Assembly (NCBI GenBank): GCA_038064015.1
Contig: JBBTUB010000023.1
Location: 369 to 64,368 of the forward strand
Direction of reading: 5' to 3'
DNA: 64,000 nucleotides
Source of the DNA: Patescibacteria group bacterium
GTDB lineage: Bacteria > Patescibacteriota > Minisyncoccia > 2-02-FULL-40-12 > IGHO2-01-FULL-4-A
Position numbers and translations under genes: made by a program. The notes beneath the pieces were generated by a model that was not told the DNA's origin, ran no database searches, and worked only from the letters and a program-made list of their open reading frames with translations. Of the stretch, positions 8,171 to 26,166 are shown piece after piece. Each line of letters opens with the position of its first letter. The first letter of the stretch is position 1.

Positions 8171-8624
8171 AGGCCTTGATACGCGGTGGTTGGTTGATCA
8201 CGATTACCATAATTAACGGCGCTAAAGATTGGAGCAGAAAAATCGGCAGGCGATGCGCGACTGAGGACATCCCCAGCGGGTATGATATCATGAAAGCAAA
8301 AATCGCCGTCAGGCACACCGCGTACACCCCAAAAAACAGAACATGCATGTCTCGCGTGCGAACCCAGCGCGCCCCGATAAATACAATTCCTTGAATGGCA
8401 ACGAAGGCCGACGTCACCCACCCAAAGGGAATCCCAGATACAAGGTCAATGATGATTGCGGTAGCCATAAAGATCAGGCTATCGCGGCCGGGTTTTTTTT
8501 GAGCAATCATCGCCGCGATCAATGCCATGGGAGCAAACCAAAACATGCCCGGAGCGAATCGCTGGAATATCCAATCGGCAATCAAAATAAACACCATAAG
8601 AATAGTAAATTGAAAACGCATCAA
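8157..8624 (-). CDS. mreD: rod shape-determining protein MreD
   Basis: A 155-aa polytopic membrane protein immediately after mreC. Its ATG overlaps mreC in an ATGA. Confidence 0.6.
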   Translation of the reverse strand: MMRFQFTILMVFILIADWIFQRFAPGMFWFAPMALIAAMIAQKKPGRDSLIFMATAIIIDLVSGIPFGWVTSAFVAIQGIVFIGARWVRTRDMHVLFFGVYAVCLTAIFAFMISYPLGMSSVAHRLPIFLLQSLAPLIMVIVINQPPRIKAYGTA

Positions 8625-9412
8625 GGTGAGAAGATGAAAAGTATGGAGCTTTGTGCGGGATCAAAAAGCAGTGAAGCTCGCACGTCTTTAAAAAGCGTGT
8701 TCTCCCCGCGGTCAACATGGGCAACCGTGCCGATGGCCAACCCCTCCGGGAACACATCAAGGCCGCTCGTCACAATGGTAGCTCCGACCTCAAGGGTTTC
8801 AGTATGGGCAATGAGATTAATTGCGGCTTCGTTGCGCAACGCTCCTTTGGACTCGGCAAGAATCGACGTCCCAAGAACCCGCGCGCTGATGATGCGCCGC
8901 GGATCATCAGCCAAAATCACTCGGGATGAATGCTCAAATGCCTCTCCGATGGTACCAACCAAAATATTGCCCGGGGCAACCACCACCATACCCGACGCCA
9001 GGCCATCAGCTTTCCCTCGATCGATCATAAGCGTGGAGACCAACGGGGTTCGCTGAAGCGAGAAAATTTTTGCCGCTATCCGCGCCGGCTGCGTCCGGCC
9101 TTCCACGCGAAGTTGCCGCCGGAGCGCTTCGTTCTCGCGCTCAAGCGCTTCGGTTGTTACAATCTTACCGATAAGCTCATTACGCTCTTGCTCGAGCTTT
9201 GCGATTCTTTTGCTTTGCAGTTTGCTTTCAAAAAACGATACCGGCCGAGCGGCAATGCGGTAGAAAAAACCCTGCAACGGATTGCTCAAAAACACGCTGT
9301 TGAGCGCGATGATGACAGCTACCACAATCACAATTTTTAGATATAGGCTTCTTTTGCGCTCCATACGAGAATGGGCTTGAGCTCTTCGATATGTTCGAGA
9401 ACCATACCGCAC
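8621..9412 (-). CDS. mreC: rod shape-determining protein MreC
   Basis: An N-terminal TM segment and coiled coil (KLEQERNELIGKIVTTEALERENEALRRQL) precede a beta-barrel domain. The true start is probably the internal MERKRS. Confidence 0.8.
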   Translation of the reverse strand: MRYGSRTYRRAQAHSRMERKRSLYLKIVIVVAVIIALNSVFLSNPLQGFFYRIAARPVSFFESKLQSKRIAKLEQERNELIGKIVTTEALERENEALRRQLRVEGRTQPARIAAKIFSLQRTPLVSTLMIDRGKADGLASGMVVVAPGNILVGTIGEAFEHSSRVILADDPRRIISARVLGTSILAESKGALRNEAAINLIAHTETLEVGATIVTSGLDVFPEGLAIGTVAHVDRGENTLFKDVRASLLFDPAQSSILFIFSP

Positions 9413-21167: not shown

Positions 21168-23518
21168 TTACGCTTTCGGAAGATGGTTCTTGAGGGCGAT
21201 GGAGAGGACTTCGTCGACGGACTTCACGAATTTAAACGTGAGATCGCGGCGGATTTCTTTGGGAATGTCTTCTTCGATGTCTTTTTTGTTGTCCATCGGT
21301 AAGATGATGGTCTTCAGGCCCGCGCGGTGGGCGGCGAGGATTTTTTCTTTGATGCCGCCGATTTCCAGGACTTTGCCACGAAGCGTCACCTCACCGGTCA
21401 TGCCAACGTCGTGGCGGATCGGCTTTCGTGTCATGAGCGATACGATCGCGGTGGTCATCGCGATGCCGGCCGATGGGCCGTCTTTCTTGACCGCGCCCGA
21501 CGGCACGTGGATGTGGATGTCTTCTTTATAAAAATCTTCTTTGATGCCAAGAGACGCGGCCTTGGTCCGCGCGTAGGAAAGCGCCGCTTGCACGGATTCT
21601 TTCATGACATCGCCAAGATGTCCCGTCAAAATCAGCCGCCCTTTGCCCGGCATGCGCGAAGCTTCGATCGAAAGCACTTCTCCGCCTACTGGTGTCCAGG
21701 CAAGGCCGGTGGCCACGCCGATTTCGTCTTTTTTCTCGGCTTCCTGGTGGGTAAATCGCTTGGGCCCCAGATAGCCGTGGAGCGATTTTGAGGTTATCTG
21801 GTATTTGCCTTTTATTTTTTTTTCTACGGTCTGCCTTGTTACCTTGCGATACACGGTCGCGATCTGGCGCTCGAGGTCGCGCACCCCCGCTTCACGCGTG
21901 TAGTGGCGAATAATCTCCGCGAGCGGGGGCTCGGGAAACGTGACCAGCTCGCCATTGAGGCCATTTTCTTTGAGTTGCTTGGGTACCAGATAGTTGGTCG
22001 CGATCTTGAGCTTTTCGTGCTCGGTGTAGCCGGGAAACTCGATGATCTCAAGACGGTCGCGAAGGGCCGGAGGAATCGTATCTAATTGGTTTGCCGTCGC
22101 GATGAAGAATACATCGGATAGGTCATATGGCACCTCCAGATAGTGATCGGAAAAAGCATTGTTTTGCTCCGGATCAAGCGCCTCCAAAAGCGCCGCCGAG
22201 GGATCGCCACGAAAATCAACGCCGATCTTATCAATCTCATCGAGCATAAAGACAGGATTGGAGGAACCTGCCGTGTTGATGCCCTGGATAATACGACCTG
22301 GCAAGGCGCCAACGTAGGTACGGCGATGGCCGCGAATTTCTGCCTCGTCGCGAAGCCCACCCAGCGAGACACGCACGAACTTGCGGCCAAGCGCCCTCGC
22401 CACAGATTTCCCGATCGAGGTCTTCCCTACTCCGGGAGGACCGAAAAGGCACAGAATAGGCCCCTTGATCTTGCCGACTTGTTTTTGGACCGCCAGATAT
22501 TCCAAAATGCGCTCTTTGGCTTTCTTAAGACCATAGTGATCCGCATCGAGGATTTTTTCGGCTTCAGTCATCTCAATAGTACCTCCGGTTTTTTTGGACC
22601 AGGGCAAGTCAACCAACCAATCTAAATACGTACGTAAATAAGAAATTTCAGGACTAAACGGCGGCATCTTCTCAAATCGCGCCAACTCTTTGAGCGCCTT
22701 TGCTTTGGCCTCTTCCGGCATGCCGGCAGCCTCGATCTTCGCTCTGATCGCATCAATGTCGCTTTTTTCGCCATCCATGCCGAGCTCTTTCTCGATACTC
22801 TTCATCTGCTCGCGCAAAAACATTTCTTTCTGCATTTTGCCAAGCGACTTGCGGGTCTCGCGGACGACGCGCTTCTCCGCATCGATGATCTCAAGCTCGC
22901 GCCCGATGAAAAAGTTCATTTTTTTGAGCGCCTCGACTGCGTCACTGGTTTCAAGCACTTCCTGCTGATCCTGGAGCTCCAAATTGAGATTGATCGCGAT
23001 CAGGTACACGATCTGGAATGGGTCTTTGATCTGATTGAGAATATTCATCAGGTCCGGCAAGAGGGCGGGCATGTTACGAACTTCCAAAAGCTGCTTGAAG
23101 AGCTCCACGGTCGCGCGGATCAAGGCCTCGGTTTCAACACTTTTGGGAAACTCGCTGGAAATCGGCTTGACGGTAGCCCGGAAGAAAGGCTCAATCTGCG
23201 TAAAATTGGAAATATAGACGCGCGCGATGCCCTCGACGTCAATCTTGGAGGGCCGTCCGGGAGTTTGTGCACCTCAAAAATCTTGCCGACGGTACCTACG
23301 GTAAAAAGGTCTTTGTGGTCAACATCATCGAAGATGTTTTTTTGAGCGACAAAAATCGCCAACTTATCGGTTTCCATCGCCTCATCAAGACTATTCACCG
23401 ACTTTGGACGCTGGACGAGCAACGGAATCGCGACGCGGGGAAACAGTACCACGTTCTTAAGTGGAATAACCGGCAAATTCGTGGGAATGGAAAGATTTTT
23501 GTTATCTGATTCAGCCAT
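21168..23518 (-). CDS. lon: ATP-dependent Lon protease, interrupted by a 1-nt frameshift near 23250-23252
   Basis: The ORF 23120-23518 is the Lon N-domain (LPVIPLKNVVLFP ... EVHKLPDG). The ORF 21168-23123 carries the AAA+ module (GPPGVGKTS) and protease (PSAGIAMTTAIVS). In the other frame the N-domain continues SKIDVEGIARVYISNF..., so one base is missing in a GGG run. Confidence 0.9.
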
Positions 23519-23538
23519 GATGAAAGCAGTTTAGGTGA

Positions 23539-23565
23539 TTAGCACTCTCGTGTCAAGAGTGCTAG
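23539..23565. promoter_or_regulatory. CIRCE element (HrcA operator), 20 nt upstream of the lon ATG
   Basis: TTAGCACTC-tcgtgtcaa-GAGTGCTAG matches the consensus TTAGCACTC-N9-GAGTGCTAA at 17 of 18 positions. A TTATAA -10-like hexamer lies immediately upstream. Confidence 0.8.
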
Positions 23566-23566
23566 T

Positions 23567-24934
23567 TTATAATTCTTCGCTTTGCCCCGGGATGGGCACG
23601 ATTGCCTCGATGCCAAGCCGTTCGTGAGCCACCGTGGCGAGTGTTTTCGCAACCCGCTCTTCGCCCTGCACGATAAAAACACGCTTAAGATGCTTCTTGC
23701 TATTAGCCTCGGCAAGCCAGTGCAGAAGCGTCGGCTGGTCCGCATGGGCGGAATAGCTTTGCAGCGTCAGGACGCGGCATCGAACCGGAATATTTTCACC
23801 AAATATATTCACGTACGAGTCCCCCTGCATGATTTTACGACCACGACTACCCATGACCTGATAACCAACCATCAAAATCGCAGAATTCGGATCAGGTAAA
23901 TAGCGTATCTCGTGATGCAAAATACGCCCGCCTTGGCTCATGCCGGATCCGGCGATAATAATTTTTGGCTGCGGCACGTCATTGATCGCTTTGGACTCCT
24001 GGACGCTCGCCGTCATACGAAGGCCGGGGAACGCGAACACATCATCTCCCGAATTAATGAGATATGACGCTTGCCGGTTAAAATACTCGTGATGCTTCTG
24101 GTATACCGCGGTCATCTTGATCGCCAAGGGGCTGTCAACGAAAATAGGAACCTGGGGAATTATCTTTTTCTCGTGAAGTTCGTTGAGCTCGTAGAGCAAC
24201 TCTTGCGTGCGCTCCAGTGAAAAGCTCGGGATCATGAGCACGCCGCCCCTACGAATAGACTCGATTACAATTTCAGCCAGCTTCCCCCGCCGCTCTGTCC
24301 GATCCTCGTGCGCGCGGTCGCCATAGGCGGACTCGATGACGATATAGTCGGCATCATGGATGAATTCAGTGGGCCGCAATAATGGCGTAGGCGGATTACC
24401 CAGGTCGCCGGAAAAAATAAGCTTTTTGGGCGCGCCGCCGTCACTCCAGCGAAACTCGATAAACGCCGACCCCAAGATATGGCCTGCGTCATGGAGCATC
24501 GCCGAGATCCCATCGCCAAGATCAAGCATCTGCCGATACTCCACGCCTTTGATCAAAGCAATCAGGCCGGCAACATCTTCTTTTTCATACAGCGGCTCGT
24601 GGCCGTTTTCTTTCGCTTCTCGCGTGATATGCTCGAGATTATCGGGAAGGGCGACTTCAATAAGATCACGCGTCGCGCTCGTCGCGTAGACGACGCCACT
24701 AAAGCCTTCTTTGAAAAGCTTTGGCAAGCGCCCGATGTGATCAATATGGCTATGGGTTACAAAGACAAAATCAATCGTCTTTGGGTCATAGCCGAATGGC
24801 TGATAATTTAAGTCGTCAGCGTATTTGGAACCCTGAAAAAGACCGCAGTCAACAAGGATGCGCTTTTCATTTCCCTCAAGCAAATAATTCGCTCCCGTCA
24901 CCCACCCCGCCCCGCCGTAAAATGTAATTTTCAT
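23567..24934 (-). CDS. MBL-fold beta-CASP ribonuclease (RNase J / CPSF-like)
   Basis: HSHIDHIG is the metallo-beta-lactamase motif II. The D, H and H motifs follow, and a C-terminal RMMBL-like region ends in ...SYSAHAD. Confidence 0.75.
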   Translation of the reverse strand: MKITFYGGAGWVTGANYLLEGNEKRILVDCGLFQGSKYADDLNYQPFGYDPKTIDFVFVTHSHIDHIGRLPKLFKEGFSGVVYATSATRDLIEVALPDNLEHITREAKENGHEPLYEKEDVAGLIALIKGVEYRQMLDLGDGISAMLHDAGHILGSAFIEFRWSDGGAPKKLIFSGDLGNPPTPLLRPTEFIHDADYIVIESAYGDRAHEDRTERRGKLAEIVIESIRRGGVLMIPSFSLERTQELLYELNELHEKKIIPQVPIFVDSPLAIKMTAVYQKHHEYFNRQASYLINSGDDVFAFPGLRMTASVQESKAINDVPQPKIIIAGSGMSQGGRILHHEIRYLPDPNSAILMVGYQVMGSRGRKIMQGDSYVNIFGENIPVRCRVLTLQSYSAHADQPTLLHWLAEANSKKHLKRVFIVQGEERVAKTLATVAHERLGIEAIVPIPGQSEEL

Positions 24935-25323
24935 GGTCGTACGGTAATCGTTCCCCGCTCATTTTTATTATTAACATTGTAATAGTCGTACGTCCCCGCT
25001 TCGGTGAATACGTGCGTATACACCGCGGAAGATACTAAGTCTCCCGATGGGCCAAATGATCCGTCGATGCTCATCGTTACCTCGCTTTCATTGCGGAACG
25101 CCACCGAATCTTTCGTTCGTATCTGAAGATTCGTCGGACTGAATATGCCATGGTTATAGGATACGCTATACTGTCGCGGCGGCCTGACCGTTTGCGCCGC
25201 GTGCGGCTCGGGCAACGGATTATTTTTGGTAAAAATCAAAATCGCCGCGACAAACAATACGGTGATCCCCATAATCGCCAGCCACATCCCTCCATGGTTT
25301 TTGGGGTCTAGCTGGTCGCCCAT
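24931..25323 (-). CDS. membrane-anchored hypothetical protein with a cupredoxin-like beta domain (no Cu ligands seen)
   Basis: An N-terminal TM helix precedes a beta-rich domain ending VYTHVFTEAGTYDYYN. There is no Cys, His or Met copper site. Confidence 0.35.
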   Translation of the reverse strand: MGDQLDPKNHGGMWLAIMGITVLFVAAILIFTKNNPLPEPHAAQTVRPPRQYSVSYNHGIFSPTNLQIRTKDSVAFRNESEVTMSIDGSFGPSGDLVSSAVYTHVFTEAGTYDYYNVNNKNERGTITVRP

Positions 25324-25919
25324 AGGGTAAGCTGTTCTTTAATCCTATCTCCCGGTGTCTCGAACCCCGGCATATAGACAACCTTGTCACTATAGTTCAT
25401 AAAATGAAAATATTGAAGCTGCGCACGCATATCGGTCTCATTAACTTCATTGCCAAACAACTCTCGAGAGCGAGCTATAAGTTCAGGAATTGAGTGATAG
25501 TCCTTAATGATGAAATACAGATCGACGTAATCTTTCCATTTCGCCCGGCGGCCCAAGGCGTGGAGTTTCATCGCGCCCAGCGTCACCAGATCCGGCATTT
25601 TGATAATATCCCGCAATGCGCGATCGTACGGAATCTTGAATCGGTACTTCATGAACGTGAATTGCACGCCGTTTATGTAGAGTGTGTATTGTCCTTCTTG
25701 GTCGGTCTGGACTTTTTCGATCGGAGCAACTTTATTGATCTGATCTGCAATCATCCCGTTGTCAAAATCCTTTTCAGTAAACAAGTCGAAATCAACCGAG
25801 AGCCGATGGCCGATCTGCAGGGCAACTGCAGTTCCTCCGACCAAGCTAAAATCCTTCGAAAAATACTTGACCAGCGGCAAGAGCTTGCGTTGTTCGTCAG
25901 TGAATATTTCTTCGTGCAT
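25308..25919 (-). CDS. AbiEii/AbiGii-family nucleotidyltransferase (type IV toxin-like, DUF1814)
   Basis: LVGGTAVALQIGHRLSVDFDLF matches the NTase fold of the AbiEii family. The start is probably MHEEIF. The ORF-track extension to 26063 looks like non-coding read-through. Confidence 0.55.
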   Translation of the reverse strand: MHEEIFTDEQRKLLPLVKYFSKDFSLVGGTAVALQIGHRLSVDFDLFTEKDFDNGMIADQINKVAPIEKVQTDQEGQYTLYINGVQFTFMKYRFKIPYDRALRDIIKMPDLVTLGAMKLHALGRRAKWKDYVDLYFIIKDYHSIPELIARSRELFGNEVNETDMRAQLQYFHFMNYSDKVVYMPGFETPGDRIKEQLTLWATS

Positions 25920-26166
25920 CGTGGGCGAAATATGTTTTAAAGAAGTCAGCCCGCTTAGGCGAATAATTGCACCGCTGATGGCTTGTTTGCTCGAAAAATA
26001 TCTCGGCGACTTTTTCTCGCCCGAGCGCTTTGATGAGATCTTGCAATTCTTCCCAATCTCCACAATTCAGCACCGCCTCAACGACAGCTTCCTCATTGAG
26101 CCCATTGTAGTCCCTGGTATACCAGATTAGATAGGGCTTGTGTCGTATGATATCGCGGAAATCCAT
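25897..26166 (-). CDS. 89-aa putative cognate partner (antitoxin-like) of the AbiEii-like NTase
   Basis: Small ORF immediately upstream on the same strand, with a small overlap. No domain recognised. Confidence 0.3.
   Translation of the reverse strand: MDFRDIIRHKPYLIWYTRDYNGLNEEAVVEAVLNCGDWEELQDLIKALGREKVAEIFFEQTSHQRCNYSPKRADFFKTYFAHDARRNIH

What the first reader, a model, noticed from the sequence alone, without database searches (positions are those of the whole stretch)
23539..23565. Near-perfect CIRCE (HrcA) operator directly upstream of lon
TTAGCACTC-N9-GAGTGCTAG matches the CIRCE consensus at 17 of 18 positions. It sits 20 nt upstream of the lon ATG, immediately downstream of a TTATAA -10-like hexamer that overlaps the stop codon of the preceding gene.

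This predicts HrcA-dependent heat-shock control of Lon in this organism. CIRCE-controlled lon or clp genes are known in Mycoplasma and some other monoderm lineages.

The CIRCE loop itself contains TTGACA.
Basis: partly seen in the sequence, partly recalled or inferred. Interest (0 to 1): 0.6.

Follow-up and report, generated by a model that had tools for sequence, protein, structure and literature searches.

The report
HrcA heat-shock operator fused to lon promoter
A 27-bp CIRCE palindrome, the binding site of the heat-shock repressor HrcA, is built into the promoter of the Lon protease gene of an uncultured groundwater Patescibacteria (CPR) bacterium; this is an ordinary kind of switch on a less usual target gene, in a group whose gene regulation is almost unstudied.

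Summary
Window 23539-23565 holds TTAGCACTC-N9-GAGTGCTAG, which matches CIRCE at 17 of 18 positions. It is the only such site in the window and lies 20 nt upstream of the lon ATG. All the genes involved are on the minus strand.

The HrcA reading is strongly supported by comparison:
- Seven relatives with Lon 78-93% identical keep the same element at the same place. Arm identity is 0.94 and loop identity 0.92, against about 0.25-0.35 in the flanks.
- The same cassette in 120 metagenome contigs sits mostly in front of hrcA, dnaK, groES/EL, clpB/C, clpP and hsp20.

It is TTGACA inside the CIRCE loop, 17 nt, then TAAACT, ending 9 nt before the ATG. Bound HrcA would therefore cover the -35 box and spacer of an almost leaderless lon mRNA.

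Not shown: hrcA was not found on the 72.7-kb contig, and I could not reach the rest of the MAG (locus tag prefix AAB483). Patescibacteria, including other contigs from the same aquifer, encode a short HrcA of about 230 aa behind the same cassette.

CIRCE-controlled lon is already known in Mollicutes, so this is a new member of a known kind.

The parts
23539..23565 (-). CIRCE operator (HrcA binding site). On the minus strand it reads CTAGCACTC (23565-23557), loop TTGACACGA (23556-23548), GAGTGCTAA (23547-23539). It matches the consensus at 17 of 18 positions.
   Evidence: It is conserved in 7 relatives, with arm identity 0.94 against flank identity 0.25-0.35.
23551..23556 (-). Predicted -35 hexamer TTGACA, lying in the CIRCE loop.
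   Evidence: Promoter scan scores 10 of 12. TTGACA is invariant in all 8 lon loci of the clade. In the first 80 cassette loci, 53 of 79 cassettes have TTGACA.
23528..23533 (-). Predicted -10 hexamer TAAACT, 17 nt after the -35, 5 nt after the CIRCE right arm and 9 nt before the ATG.
   Evidence: The same TAAACT is present in L208, L209 and L211; L210, L212, L213 and L214 have TATCAT, TAAAAT or TAACCT. 65 of 79 cassettes have a -10 with at least 4 of 6 matches at 16-18 nt.
23516..23518 (-). lon start codon ATG. There is no Shine-Dalgarno motif, so the mRNA is predicted to be leaderless or to have a 2-3 nt leader.
   Evidence: The Lon N-terminus is conserved in relatives.
21168..23518 (-). lon (LonA: N domain, AAA+, lid, S16 protease). 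Here it is split into two ORFs, 23120-23518 and 21168-23123, because a T is missing between 23252 and 23251.
   Evidence: Pfam. Alignment to L001-L003, where the gene is an intact 783 aa. NCBI annotates a 686-aa product.
23567..24934 (-). Upstream gene for a beta-CASP / MBL-fold RNA-metabolising hydrolase. Its TAA stop (23569-23567) lies 1 nt before the CIRCE.
   Evidence: The MBL-then-lon gene order is kept in L004 and L208-L214.
23567..23572 (-). It is not supported.
   Evidence: It has no -35 partner in the promoter scan. It lies in upstream flank that is only 0.25 identical between relatives and is absent from them.

Best explanation
The element is a functional CIRCE operator fused with the sigma-70-type promoter of lon.

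On the minus strand the -35 box TTGACA occupies the first six bases of the 9-nt CIRCE loop. The right arm fills most of the 17-nt spacer. The -10 box TAAACT follows 5 nt after the arm, and the lon ATG lies 9 nt further on. Transcription should therefore start at or 2-3 nt before the ATG, giving a leaderless mRNA with no Shine-Dalgarno motif.

A dimer of the repressor HrcA bound to the palindrome would cover roughly -45 to -19 and keep RNA polymerase off the -35 box and spacer. This is inferred. By analogy with Bacillus subtilis (Mogk et al. 1997, as cited in PMC7737663), HrcA needs GroEL/ES to stay active. When unfolded proteins titrate GroEL, HrcA falls off and Lon, the protease for misfolded proteins, is induced together with the chaperones.

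Shown here: the sequence, its geometry, its conservation, and the association of the cassette with heat-shock genes.
Inferred: HrcA binding, the transcription start site, and heat induction.
For: - Match to consensus: 17 of 18 positions, unique in 64 kb, chance expectation 0.04.
- Promoter scan: TTGACA-N17-TAAACT scores 10 of 12 on the lon strand and overlaps the element.
- Footprint in close relatives: seven populations with Lon 78-93% identical keep the MBL-then-lon gene order and the whole cassette (L208-L214). Mean pairwise identity is 0.94 for the arms, 0.92 for the loop and 0.65 for the -10. It is 0.25 for the upstream 40 nt and 0.34-0.35 for the neighbouring downstream sequence.
- Variants seen in relatives: TTGGCACTC..GAGTGCTAA and the symmetric CTGGCACTC..GAGTGCCAA. 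Both are listed as groESL CIRCE sites in delta-proteobacteria (PMC545781).
- Gene association: the pattern TAGCACTC-TTGAC-N4-GAGTGCTA hit at least 120 metagenome contigs. Pfam on the 74 downstream ORFs from the first 80 contigs found HrcA 22, Hsp70 16, Clp_N 7, ClpP 3, Cpn10 3, Hsp20 2, Cpn60 1 and DnaJ 1. By N-terminal motifs, the other 40 contigs carry hrcA, dnaK, clpP, clpB/C, hsp20 and groES.
- Geometry across cassettes: 65 of 79 have a good -10 at 16-18 nt after the loop -35.
- Distant CPR genomes: six Microgenomates-like genomes carry TTAGCA-N15-TGCTAA directly upstream of lon. There are 7 such hits in 970 kb of lon loci, and 6 are at lon.
- Leaderless organisation: only 6 of 42 genes have an SD-like motif, and TAnnnT hexamers peak 6 nt before start codons.
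- Precedent: CIRCE-controlled lon is documented in M. pneumoniae and S. melliferum.
Against: - No hrcA gene was found in the window, in the remaining 8.4 kb of the 72.7-kb contig, or in any lon locus. The rest of the MAG could not be searched.
- No second CIRCE is available from this genome.
- L004, a relative whose Lon is 75% identical, and three further Patescibacteria relatives (Lon 60-63% identical) have no CIRCE at lon. Lon membership in the regulon is therefore clade-specific.
- None of the 120 cassette contigs sampled has lon downstream.
- The -10 TAAACT matches TATAAT at only 4 of 6 positions. It lies 9 nt from the ATG, whereas the commonest distance in this organism is 6 nt.
- There are no expression or binding data.
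Confidence: 0.85

Rival explanations
1. Transcription starts from a promoter whose -10 is TTATAA (23572-23567). The CIRCE then lies downstream of the start site, as at B. subtilis groESL and dnaK. It would act as a roadblock operator and as an element in the 5' untranslated region of the mRNA.
For: TTATAA is present and abuts the element. CIRCE downstream of the -10 is the classical arrangement (my own knowledge of B. subtilis). Read-through from the upstream gene is possible, as for M. pneumoniae lon, which is driven from the upstream tig promoter with a CIRCE in between.
Against: The promoter scan finds no -35 partner for TTATAA. TTATAA is part of the codons ...GAA TTA TAA and is absent in all seven relatives, whose upstream flanks are only 25% identical. 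In contrast, TTGACA in the loop and a -10 at N16-17 are conserved there and in 65 of 79 cassettes elsewhere.
Confidence: 0.06
2. The palindrome acts mainly at the RNA level. It would be a 3' hairpin that terminates or stabilises the mRNA of the upstream beta-CASP gene, and its resemblance to CIRCE would be incidental or secondary.
For: It begins 1 nt after the stop codon. As RNA it folds into an 11-bp hairpin. The 91-nt region folds at -26 kcal/mol with z = -2.6.
Against: - No U-tract follows it on the minus strand. The only terminator-like call is on the plus strand, where no gene ends.
- A hairpin needs pairing, not sequence, yet the arms are 94% identical and the unpaired loop is 92% identical across relatives.
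- The same 27-mer stands in front of hrcA, dnaK and groES in 120 contigs regardless of what lies upstream.
Confidence: 0.04
3. The site is a relic. It is a true CIRCE by descent, but the organism has lost hrcA, so lon is expressed constitutively from the embedded promoter.
For: hrcA was not found on the 72.7 kb available. CPR genomes are reduced. S. melliferum shows gradual decay of CIRCE sites.
Against: Without a binding protein the 18 arm positions should drift like the flanks. Instead they are 94% identical across eight populations whose flanks are randomised. The one population with arm changes changed both arms symmetrically. Short HrcA genes are very common in Patescibacteria, with more than 8000 clusters including MAGs from the same aquifer.
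Confidence: 0.04
4. The palindrome arose by chance and has no function.
For: None beyond the fact that it is a single site.
Against: The chance expectation is 0.04 even at up to 3 mismatches. The site is also conserved in relatives and the cassette is associated with heat-shock genes.
Confidence: 0.01

Closest known systems
CIRCE-controlled lon of Mollicutes (M. pneumoniae MPN332; S. melliferum lon; PMC7737663, PMC5138195)
   Same: A consensus CIRCE sits directly upstream of lon, between lon and the preceding gene. Lon is co-regulated by HrcA with dnaK, clpB and groESL. The host is a small-genome bacterium with few transcription factors.
   Different: The host is an unrelated lineage (Patescibacteria/CPR, nearest named Lon relatives Paceibacterota and Yanofskybacteria). 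The operator here encloses the -35 box of a dedicated promoter, and the mRNA is predicted to be leaderless. In M. pneumoniae lon is driven from the upstream tig promoter with the CIRCE in between. The likely repressor is a short HrcA lacking about 97 residues.
Classical B. subtilis HrcA/CIRCE regulon (groESL, hrcA-grpE-dnaK-dnaJ), with GroEL titration (Mogk et al. 1997, cited in PMC7737663)
   Same: Same 9-N9-9 palindrome. The same repressor family is inferred. The same logic applies: negative control relieved by unfolded proteins.
   Different: In B. subtilis the regulon is limited to the two chaperone operons, the CIRCE lies downstream of the -10 around the start site, and lonA is not a member (my own knowledge). 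Here the CIRCE covers the -35 box and spacer, and the target is lon.
Sigma-32-dependent lon heat-shock promoters of Proteobacteria (e.g. clpP-clpX-lon in delta-proteobacteria, PMC545781)
   Same: Lon is induced together with chaperones under heat stress.
   Different: That control is positive, through an alternative sigma factor. Here control is negative, through a repressor at a housekeeping-type promoter. None of the roughly 68 non-CPR lon loci fetched has a CIRCE at lon within 3 mismatches. The single perfect CIRCE found (L015) lies 4.4 kb upstream of lon.
Microgenomates-type lon promoters found here (L012, L014, L026, L028, L034, L039)
   Same: A CIRCE-like palindrome (TTAGCA-N15-TGCTAA, left arm often the full TTAGCACTC) is fused to the lon promoter in CPR bacteria.
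   Different: The geometry differs. The -35 lies just upstream of the left arm, and the -10 sits inside the loop and right arm, so the inner three bases of the right arm are lost. Function is less certain.

Membership tests
CIRCE / HrcA operator | 9-bp inverted repeat with a 9-bp spacer matching TTAGCACTC-N9-GAGTGCTAA | tested here: met
   17 of 18 positions match and it is the only site in the window. Four relatives have 18 of 18; the others carry variants published as CIRCE sites.
CIRCE / HrcA operator | Located in the promoter or 5' region of a heat-shock or protein-quality-control gene | tested here: met
   It lies 20 nt upstream of the lon ATG and overlaps the predicted -35 box and spacer.
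CIRCE / HrcA operator | Conserved at the orthologous position in related genomes beyond neutral expectation | tested here: met
   Present in 7 of 7 relatives with Lon 78-93% identical. Arm identity is 0.94 against flank identity 0.25-0.35. It is absent at 75% Lon identity and below within Patescibacteria relatives L004-L007.
CIRCE / HrcA operator | hrcA gene present in the same genome | not testable with these tools
   hrcA is not on the 72.7-kb contig. Indirect support: short HrcA occurs in more than 8000 clusters, and the named hits among the 120 listed are Patescibacteria MAGs. Contigs L134 and L186 from the same aquifer also carry it.
CIRCE / HrcA operator | Further CIRCE copies at groES/EL and/or the hrcA-grpE-dnaK operon in the same genome | not testable with these tools
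   None in the window or in L084. In other organisms the identical cassette precedes hrcA, dnaK, groES, groEL, clpB/C, clpP and hsp20.
CIRCE / HrcA operator | HrcA binding and stress-dependent derepression | not testable with these tools
   Requires gel-shift or footprinting assays and transcript measurements.
Sigma-70-type promoter | -35 and -10 hexamers at 16-18 bp spacing, correctly placed before the gene | tested here: met
   TTGACA-N17-TAAACT scores 10 of 12. The same layout occurs in 65 of 79 cassettes and in all 8 lon loci of the clade. The start site itself is not mapped.
LonA protease | LON N-terminal domain, AAA+ module, lid and S16 protease domain in one polypeptide | tested here: met
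   Pfam families LON_substr_bdg, AAA, Lon_lid and Lon_C. The protein is an intact 783 aa in L001. It is frameshifted only in the window's assembly.
Intrinsic (rho-independent) terminator | GC-rich hairpin followed by a U-tract on the transcribed strand | tested here: not met
   The hairpin is present, but no T-run follows it on the minus strand. The only terminator-like call is on the plus strand, where no gene ends.

The most novel reading that the evidence does not exclude
Patescibacteria (CPR) may run their heat-shock regulon with a compact, portable operator-promoter cassette. In it the CIRCE encloses the -35 box in its loop, the -10 follows 5 nt after the right arm, and the coding sequence often starts a few nucleotides later, giving a leaderless mRNA. 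The cassette would be read by a truncated HrcA of about 230 aa that lacks the inserted dimerisation domain and that NCBI annotates as 'hypothetical protein'. One Paceibacteria-type clade, including this organism, would have recruited lon into that regulon by acquiring the cassette. A second CPR lineage (Microgenomates-like) would have fused a CIRCE to its lon promoter independently, in a different geometry. If so, this would be the first defined transcription-factor regulon and promoter architecture for CPR bacteria.
Probability: 0.5. Interest if true: 0.55.

Novelty: new member of a known kind. Interest (0 to 1): 0.4.

Why it matters
HrcA/CIRCE is one of the best-known bacterial stress switches, and lon is already a known target in Mollicutes, so the site itself is not surprising.

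Its value lies in the context. The full-text library I searched holds no paper on HrcA/CIRCE in Patescibacteria or the CPR: one paper mentions both HrcA and Patescibacteria, and it is an unrelated oral-microbiota study, and none mentions HrcA with 'candidate phyla radiation'.

The site leads to several testable statements about uncultured, reduced-genome bacteria:
- a recurring operator-promoter cassette that defines sigma-70-type -35 and -10 boxes;
- leaderless starts, which current gene callers mis-annotate by placing start codons inside the CIRCE loop or too far downstream;
- a short, unannotated HrcA.

The clade-specific gain of lon also shows how regulon membership turns over.

Tried and rejected
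It was useless for CPR and cost one of three searches.
- tblastn with B. subtilis HrcA and with 25 CPR HrcAs found nothing in the window, the contig remainder or any lon locus. The gap at 8171-9336, where some CPR genomes place hrcA, holds mreC and mreD.
- A profile search with short HrcAs (A2) returned more than 8000 clusters but lists only 120. All 120 were 56-100% identical to the first query HrcA, and Candidatus Falkowbacteria was the only candidate phylum named among them. The AAB483 protein was not among them.
- The exact look-up of the 1271-aa ORF failed because my start codon was wrong. Walking the ENA contig with the next gene showed no heat-shock gene in the extra 8.4 kb.
Those came later from the Lon protein search followed by contig look-ups.
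- The label 'Candidatus Saccharibacteria' on L004 misled me for a while. The nearest named Lon relatives are instead labelled Paceibacterota, Yanofskybacteria, Minisyncoccia or Parcubacteria.
- An Rfam gathering-threshold scan of the whole window found nothing.
- Literature searches for HrcA with Patescibacteria or CPR found nothing relevant. The three papers returned by a search for CIRCE overlapping a -35 region were not opened, and none appears from its title to describe this architecture.
- I rejected three readings, for the reasons given under rival explanations: terminator, TTATAA as the -10, and chance palindrome.

Full report
OBSERVATION. Window 23539-23565 reads TTAGCACTC-TCGTGTCAA-GAGTGCTAG on the plus strand. 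It matches the CIRCE consensus TTAGCACTC-N9-GAGTGCTAA (consensus as quoted in PMC545781) with one mismatch. It is the only match in the 64-kb window even at up to 3 mismatches. Dinucleotide-preserving shuffles give 0.04 such matches on average.

ANATOMY. The genes here are on the minus strand.
- A beta-CASP/MBL-fold hydrolase (23567-24934; Pfam Lactamase_B, Beta-Casp, RMMBL) ends with TAA at 23569-23567.
- One base later the palindrome starts. On the coding strand it reads CTAGCACTC (23565-23557), TTGACACGA (23556-23548), GAGTGCTAA (23547-23539).
- Twenty nucleotides further on is the ATG of lon (23518-23516). lon carries the LON N domain, AAA+ module, lid and S16 protease domain.
- The promoter scan finds TTGACA (23556-23551), 17 nt, TAAACT (23533-23528) on the lon strand, scoring 10 of 12.

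So the -35 box is the first six bases of the CIRCE loop, the right arm is most of the spacer, and the -10 ends 9 nt before the ATG. There is no Shine-Dalgarno motif.

This fits the organism as a whole. Of 42 genes called on the parent contig, only 6 have an SD-like motif. TAnnnT hexamers pile up exactly 6 nt before start codons, in 8 genes against a background of about 1 per offset. I therefore infer a leaderless or 2-3-nt-leader lon mRNA starting near 23519-23522. The CIRCE would then span about -45 to -19.

SOURCE. The window is a contig of an NCBI MAG named 'Patescibacteria group bacterium', with locus tags AAB483_. It comes from the 0.1-um fraction of Hainich groundwater well H51. Independent ENA and Logan assemblies of the same population are identical apart from one base. 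The window lacks a T between 23252 and 23251, which splits lon into two ORFs. The other assemblies encode an intact 783-aa Lon, and NCBI annotates a 686-aa remnant. The nearest named Lon relatives are Paceibacterota, Yanofskybacteria, Minisyncoccia and Parcubacteria, at 66-74% identity.

COMPARATIVE EVIDENCE 1: CLOSE RELATIVES. I fetched the lon loci of seven populations whose Lon is 93, 92, 85, 82, 82, 79 and 78% identical (L208, L209, L210, L211, L214, L212, L213).
- All keep the MBL-then-lon gene order, and all carry the cassette immediately upstream of lon.
- Mean pairwise identity is 0.94 for the 18 arm positions and 0.92 for the loop, with TTGACA invariant. It is 0.65 for the -10 hexamer.
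- By contrast it is 0.25 for the 40 nt upstream, 0.34 for the 5 nt between arm and -10, and 0.35 for the next 19 nt. This is a clean phylogenetic footprint of both operator and promoter.
- Two relatives carry arm variants: TTGGCACTC..GAGTGCTAA (L212) and the symmetric CTGGCACTC..GAGTGCCAA (L214). Both are listed as groESL CIRCE sites of Desulfovibrio species (PMC545781). The symmetric double change is what a dimer-bound palindrome predicts.
- The -10-to-ATG distance is 6-10 nt in six of the eight loci and 21-31 nt in two.
- A relative at 75% Lon identity (L004) with the same gene order has an ordinary promoter and no CIRCE. The same is true of L005-L007. The cassette at lon is therefore specific to one clade.

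COMPARATIVE EVIDENCE 2: THE CASSETTE ELSEWHERE.
- In 65 of 79 cassettes a -10 with at least 4 of 6 matches follows at 16-18 nt. TAAACT itself occurs four times.
- Pfam on the 74 downstream ORFs of the first 80 contigs gives HrcA 22, Hsp70 16, Clp_N 7, ClpP 3, Cpn10 3, Hsp20 2, Cpn60 1 and DnaJ 1. There are also 4 zinc-ribbon proteins, on high-GC contigs.
- The other 40 contigs show the same gene set.
- Many hrcA genes start 10-22 nt after the palindrome, so they are leaderless. Many dnaK genes have a second CIRCE after the -10.
- Two contigs are from the same aquifer. L134 (well H43) carries an hrcA fragment. L186 (well H41) has the order mreBCD, PBP2, greA, cassette, hrcA, grpE, dnaK.

The window's element is therefore one instance of a widespread heat-shock operator-promoter design. 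None of the 120 sampled contigs has lon as the target.

COMPARATIVE EVIDENCE 3: DISTANT LON LOCI. Among 80 lon loci from GTDB genomes (970 kb), TTAGCA-N15-TGCTAA occurs 7 times. Six of these lie directly upstream of lon in Microgenomates-like CPR genomes (Daviesbacteria, Levyibacteriota and others). There the -35 lies just before the left arm and the -10 inside the palindrome. No non-CPR lon locus has a CIRCE at lon. A CIRCE-like operator at lon has thus arisen, or been retained, in at least two CPR lineages with different geometries.

THE REPRESSOR. hrcA is not in the window, not in the remaining 8.4 kb of the contig, and not in any lon locus.

What can be said:
- The HrcA proteins behind the cassette are a short form of 217-245 aa.
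- In a profile comparison they align to B. subtilis HrcA residues 1-124 and 222-338 at 100% probability, and so lack about 97 residues.
- An AlphaFold model (mean pLDDT 90.8) has T. maritima HrcA 1STZ as its best structural match. The TM-score is 0.77 normalised to the model but only 0.55 normalised to 1STZ.
- The missing piece corresponds in position to the inserted dimerising domain described for 1STZ. That assignment is from my own recollection of the structure paper and was not tested residue by residue.
- More than 8000 sequence clusters match the short-HrcA profile. Those with NCBI names are Patescibacteria MAGs and are called 'hypothetical protein'. They include two entries whose AAB-series locus tags (AAB653_01300, AAB530_01405) resemble those of this MAG.

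MECHANISM. Most likely (confidence about 0.85), HrcA binds the palindrome and occludes the -35 box and spacer, repressing lon. Proteotoxic stress would inactivate HrcA through GroEL titration, the B. subtilis model as cited in PMC7737663, and derepress lon. The sequence features, their conservation and their gene association are shown. Binding, the start site and induction are inferred.

RIVALS.
- TTATAA as the -10, with the CIRCE downstream of the start site: not conserved and no -35 partner.
- RNA terminator or stabiliser of the upstream gene: a hairpin exists, but there is no U-tract, and both arm sequence and loop sequence are conserved, which a terminator does not require.
- Relic site in a genome that has lost hrcA: hard to reconcile with 94% arm identity against randomised flanks.
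- Chance: excluded.

COMPARISON WITH WHAT IS KNOWN. CIRCE-controlled lon is established in M. pneumoniae, where a CIRCE lies upstream of lon and Lon belongs to the HrcA regulon (PMC7737663). [quoted passage not shown] In Proteobacteria lon is usually under sigma-32 (PMC545781).

The present case works like the Mollicutes case. It meets every membership feature that could be tested here: the motif, the position and the conservation. It differs in host lineage, in the -35-in-loop promoter fusion, in the predicted leaderless start, and in the short HrcA. The library holds no paper on HrcA in Patescibacteria or the CPR; the single paper mentioning both words is an unrelated oral-microbiota study.

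Verdict: a real feature and a new member of a known kind, of moderate interest, mainly as an entry point into CPR transcription control.

Noticed in passing
window 23251-23252 (lon, minus strand): lon is frameshifted in this assembly. One T is missing (GACGGC^CCTCC) relative to three independent ENA and Logan assemblies, which encode an intact 783-aa Lon. NCBI consequently annotates a truncated 686-aa 'endopeptidase La' (MEK7583270.1). This is probably a MAG consensus error rather than a pseudogene.
   Followed up: yes
whole window; L001 and L084 gene starts: The organism hardly uses Shine-Dalgarno sites: only 6 of 42 genes have one. It appears largely leaderless, because -10-like TAnnnT hexamers end exactly 6 nt before the start codon in 8 of 42 genes, against a background of about 1 per offset.
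   Followed up: partly
L090-L166 and L168-L205 hrcA genes; P0126-P0245: Patescibacterial HrcA is a short form (217-245 aa) lacking about 97 residues (B. subtilis 125-221). That is the position of the inserted dimerisation domain of T. maritima HrcA (1STZ). The AF2 model has mean pLDDT 90.8, and its TM-score to 1stz is 0.77 normalised to the model and 0.55 normalised to 1STZ. More than 8000 clusters match the profile, and NCBI calls them 'hypothetical protein'. How such a protein dimerises on a palindrome is open.
   Followed up: partly
L088, L108, L109, L111, L113, L115, L123, L125, L130, L137, L145, L162 (dnaK loci): These loci carry tandem CIRCEs. One encloses the -35 box and a second (TTGGCACTC-N9-GAGTGCTAA or a close variant) lies just after the -10, ahead of dnaK.
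   Followed up: no
L012:5938-5964, L014:5919-5945, L026:5934-5960, L028:275-301, L034:5941-5967, L039:5974-6000: Microgenomates-like CPR genomes have a second way of fusing a CIRCE-like palindrome to the lon promoter: TTGAC(A/T), 1-4 nt, TTAGCA-N15-TGCTAA, with the -10 inside the palindrome.
   Followed up: partly
L212:8552, L213:7988, L214:10001: The gene calls on record mis-start lon in relatives. In L212 the start is the ATG inside the CIRCE loop (TTGACATGA). In L213 it is the ATG formed by the last two bases of the -10 (TAAAAT) and the following G. In L214 it is 160 nt too far downstream. This is a systematic risk for leaderless CPR genes.
   Followed up: partly
L092, L106, L128, L160 (high-GC contigs): The same CIRCE cassette precedes small FmdB-type zinc-ribbon proteins (Pfam Zn_ribbon_8) on contigs of 62-69% GC, which are probably not CPR. 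This may be an unrecognised HrcA regulon member.
   Followed up: no
window 34738-54806 (minus strand): The window holds a long run of purine and GMP/AMP biosynthesis genes. Pfam supports purB, purL, purQ, purF, purN and purD. guaA, guaB, purA and purM are inferred from their N-terminal motifs only. CPR bacteria are usually described as lacking de novo nucleotide synthesis.
   Followed up: no
window 25308-26063 (minus strand): An AbiEii-type nucleotidyltransferase toxin gene (type IV toxin-antitoxin / abortive infection) lies two genes upstream of the MBL hydrolase gene. It is present in some relatives (L208, L214) and absent in others (L209, L211).
   Followed up: no
L004 (CAYHMZ010000008.1): The TPA label 'uncultured Candidatus Saccharibacteria' sits oddly with its Lon relatives. 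The nearest named Lon homologues of the window, to which L004's Lon is 75% identical, are labelled Paceibacterota, Yanofskybacteria or Parcubacteria.
   Followed up: partly
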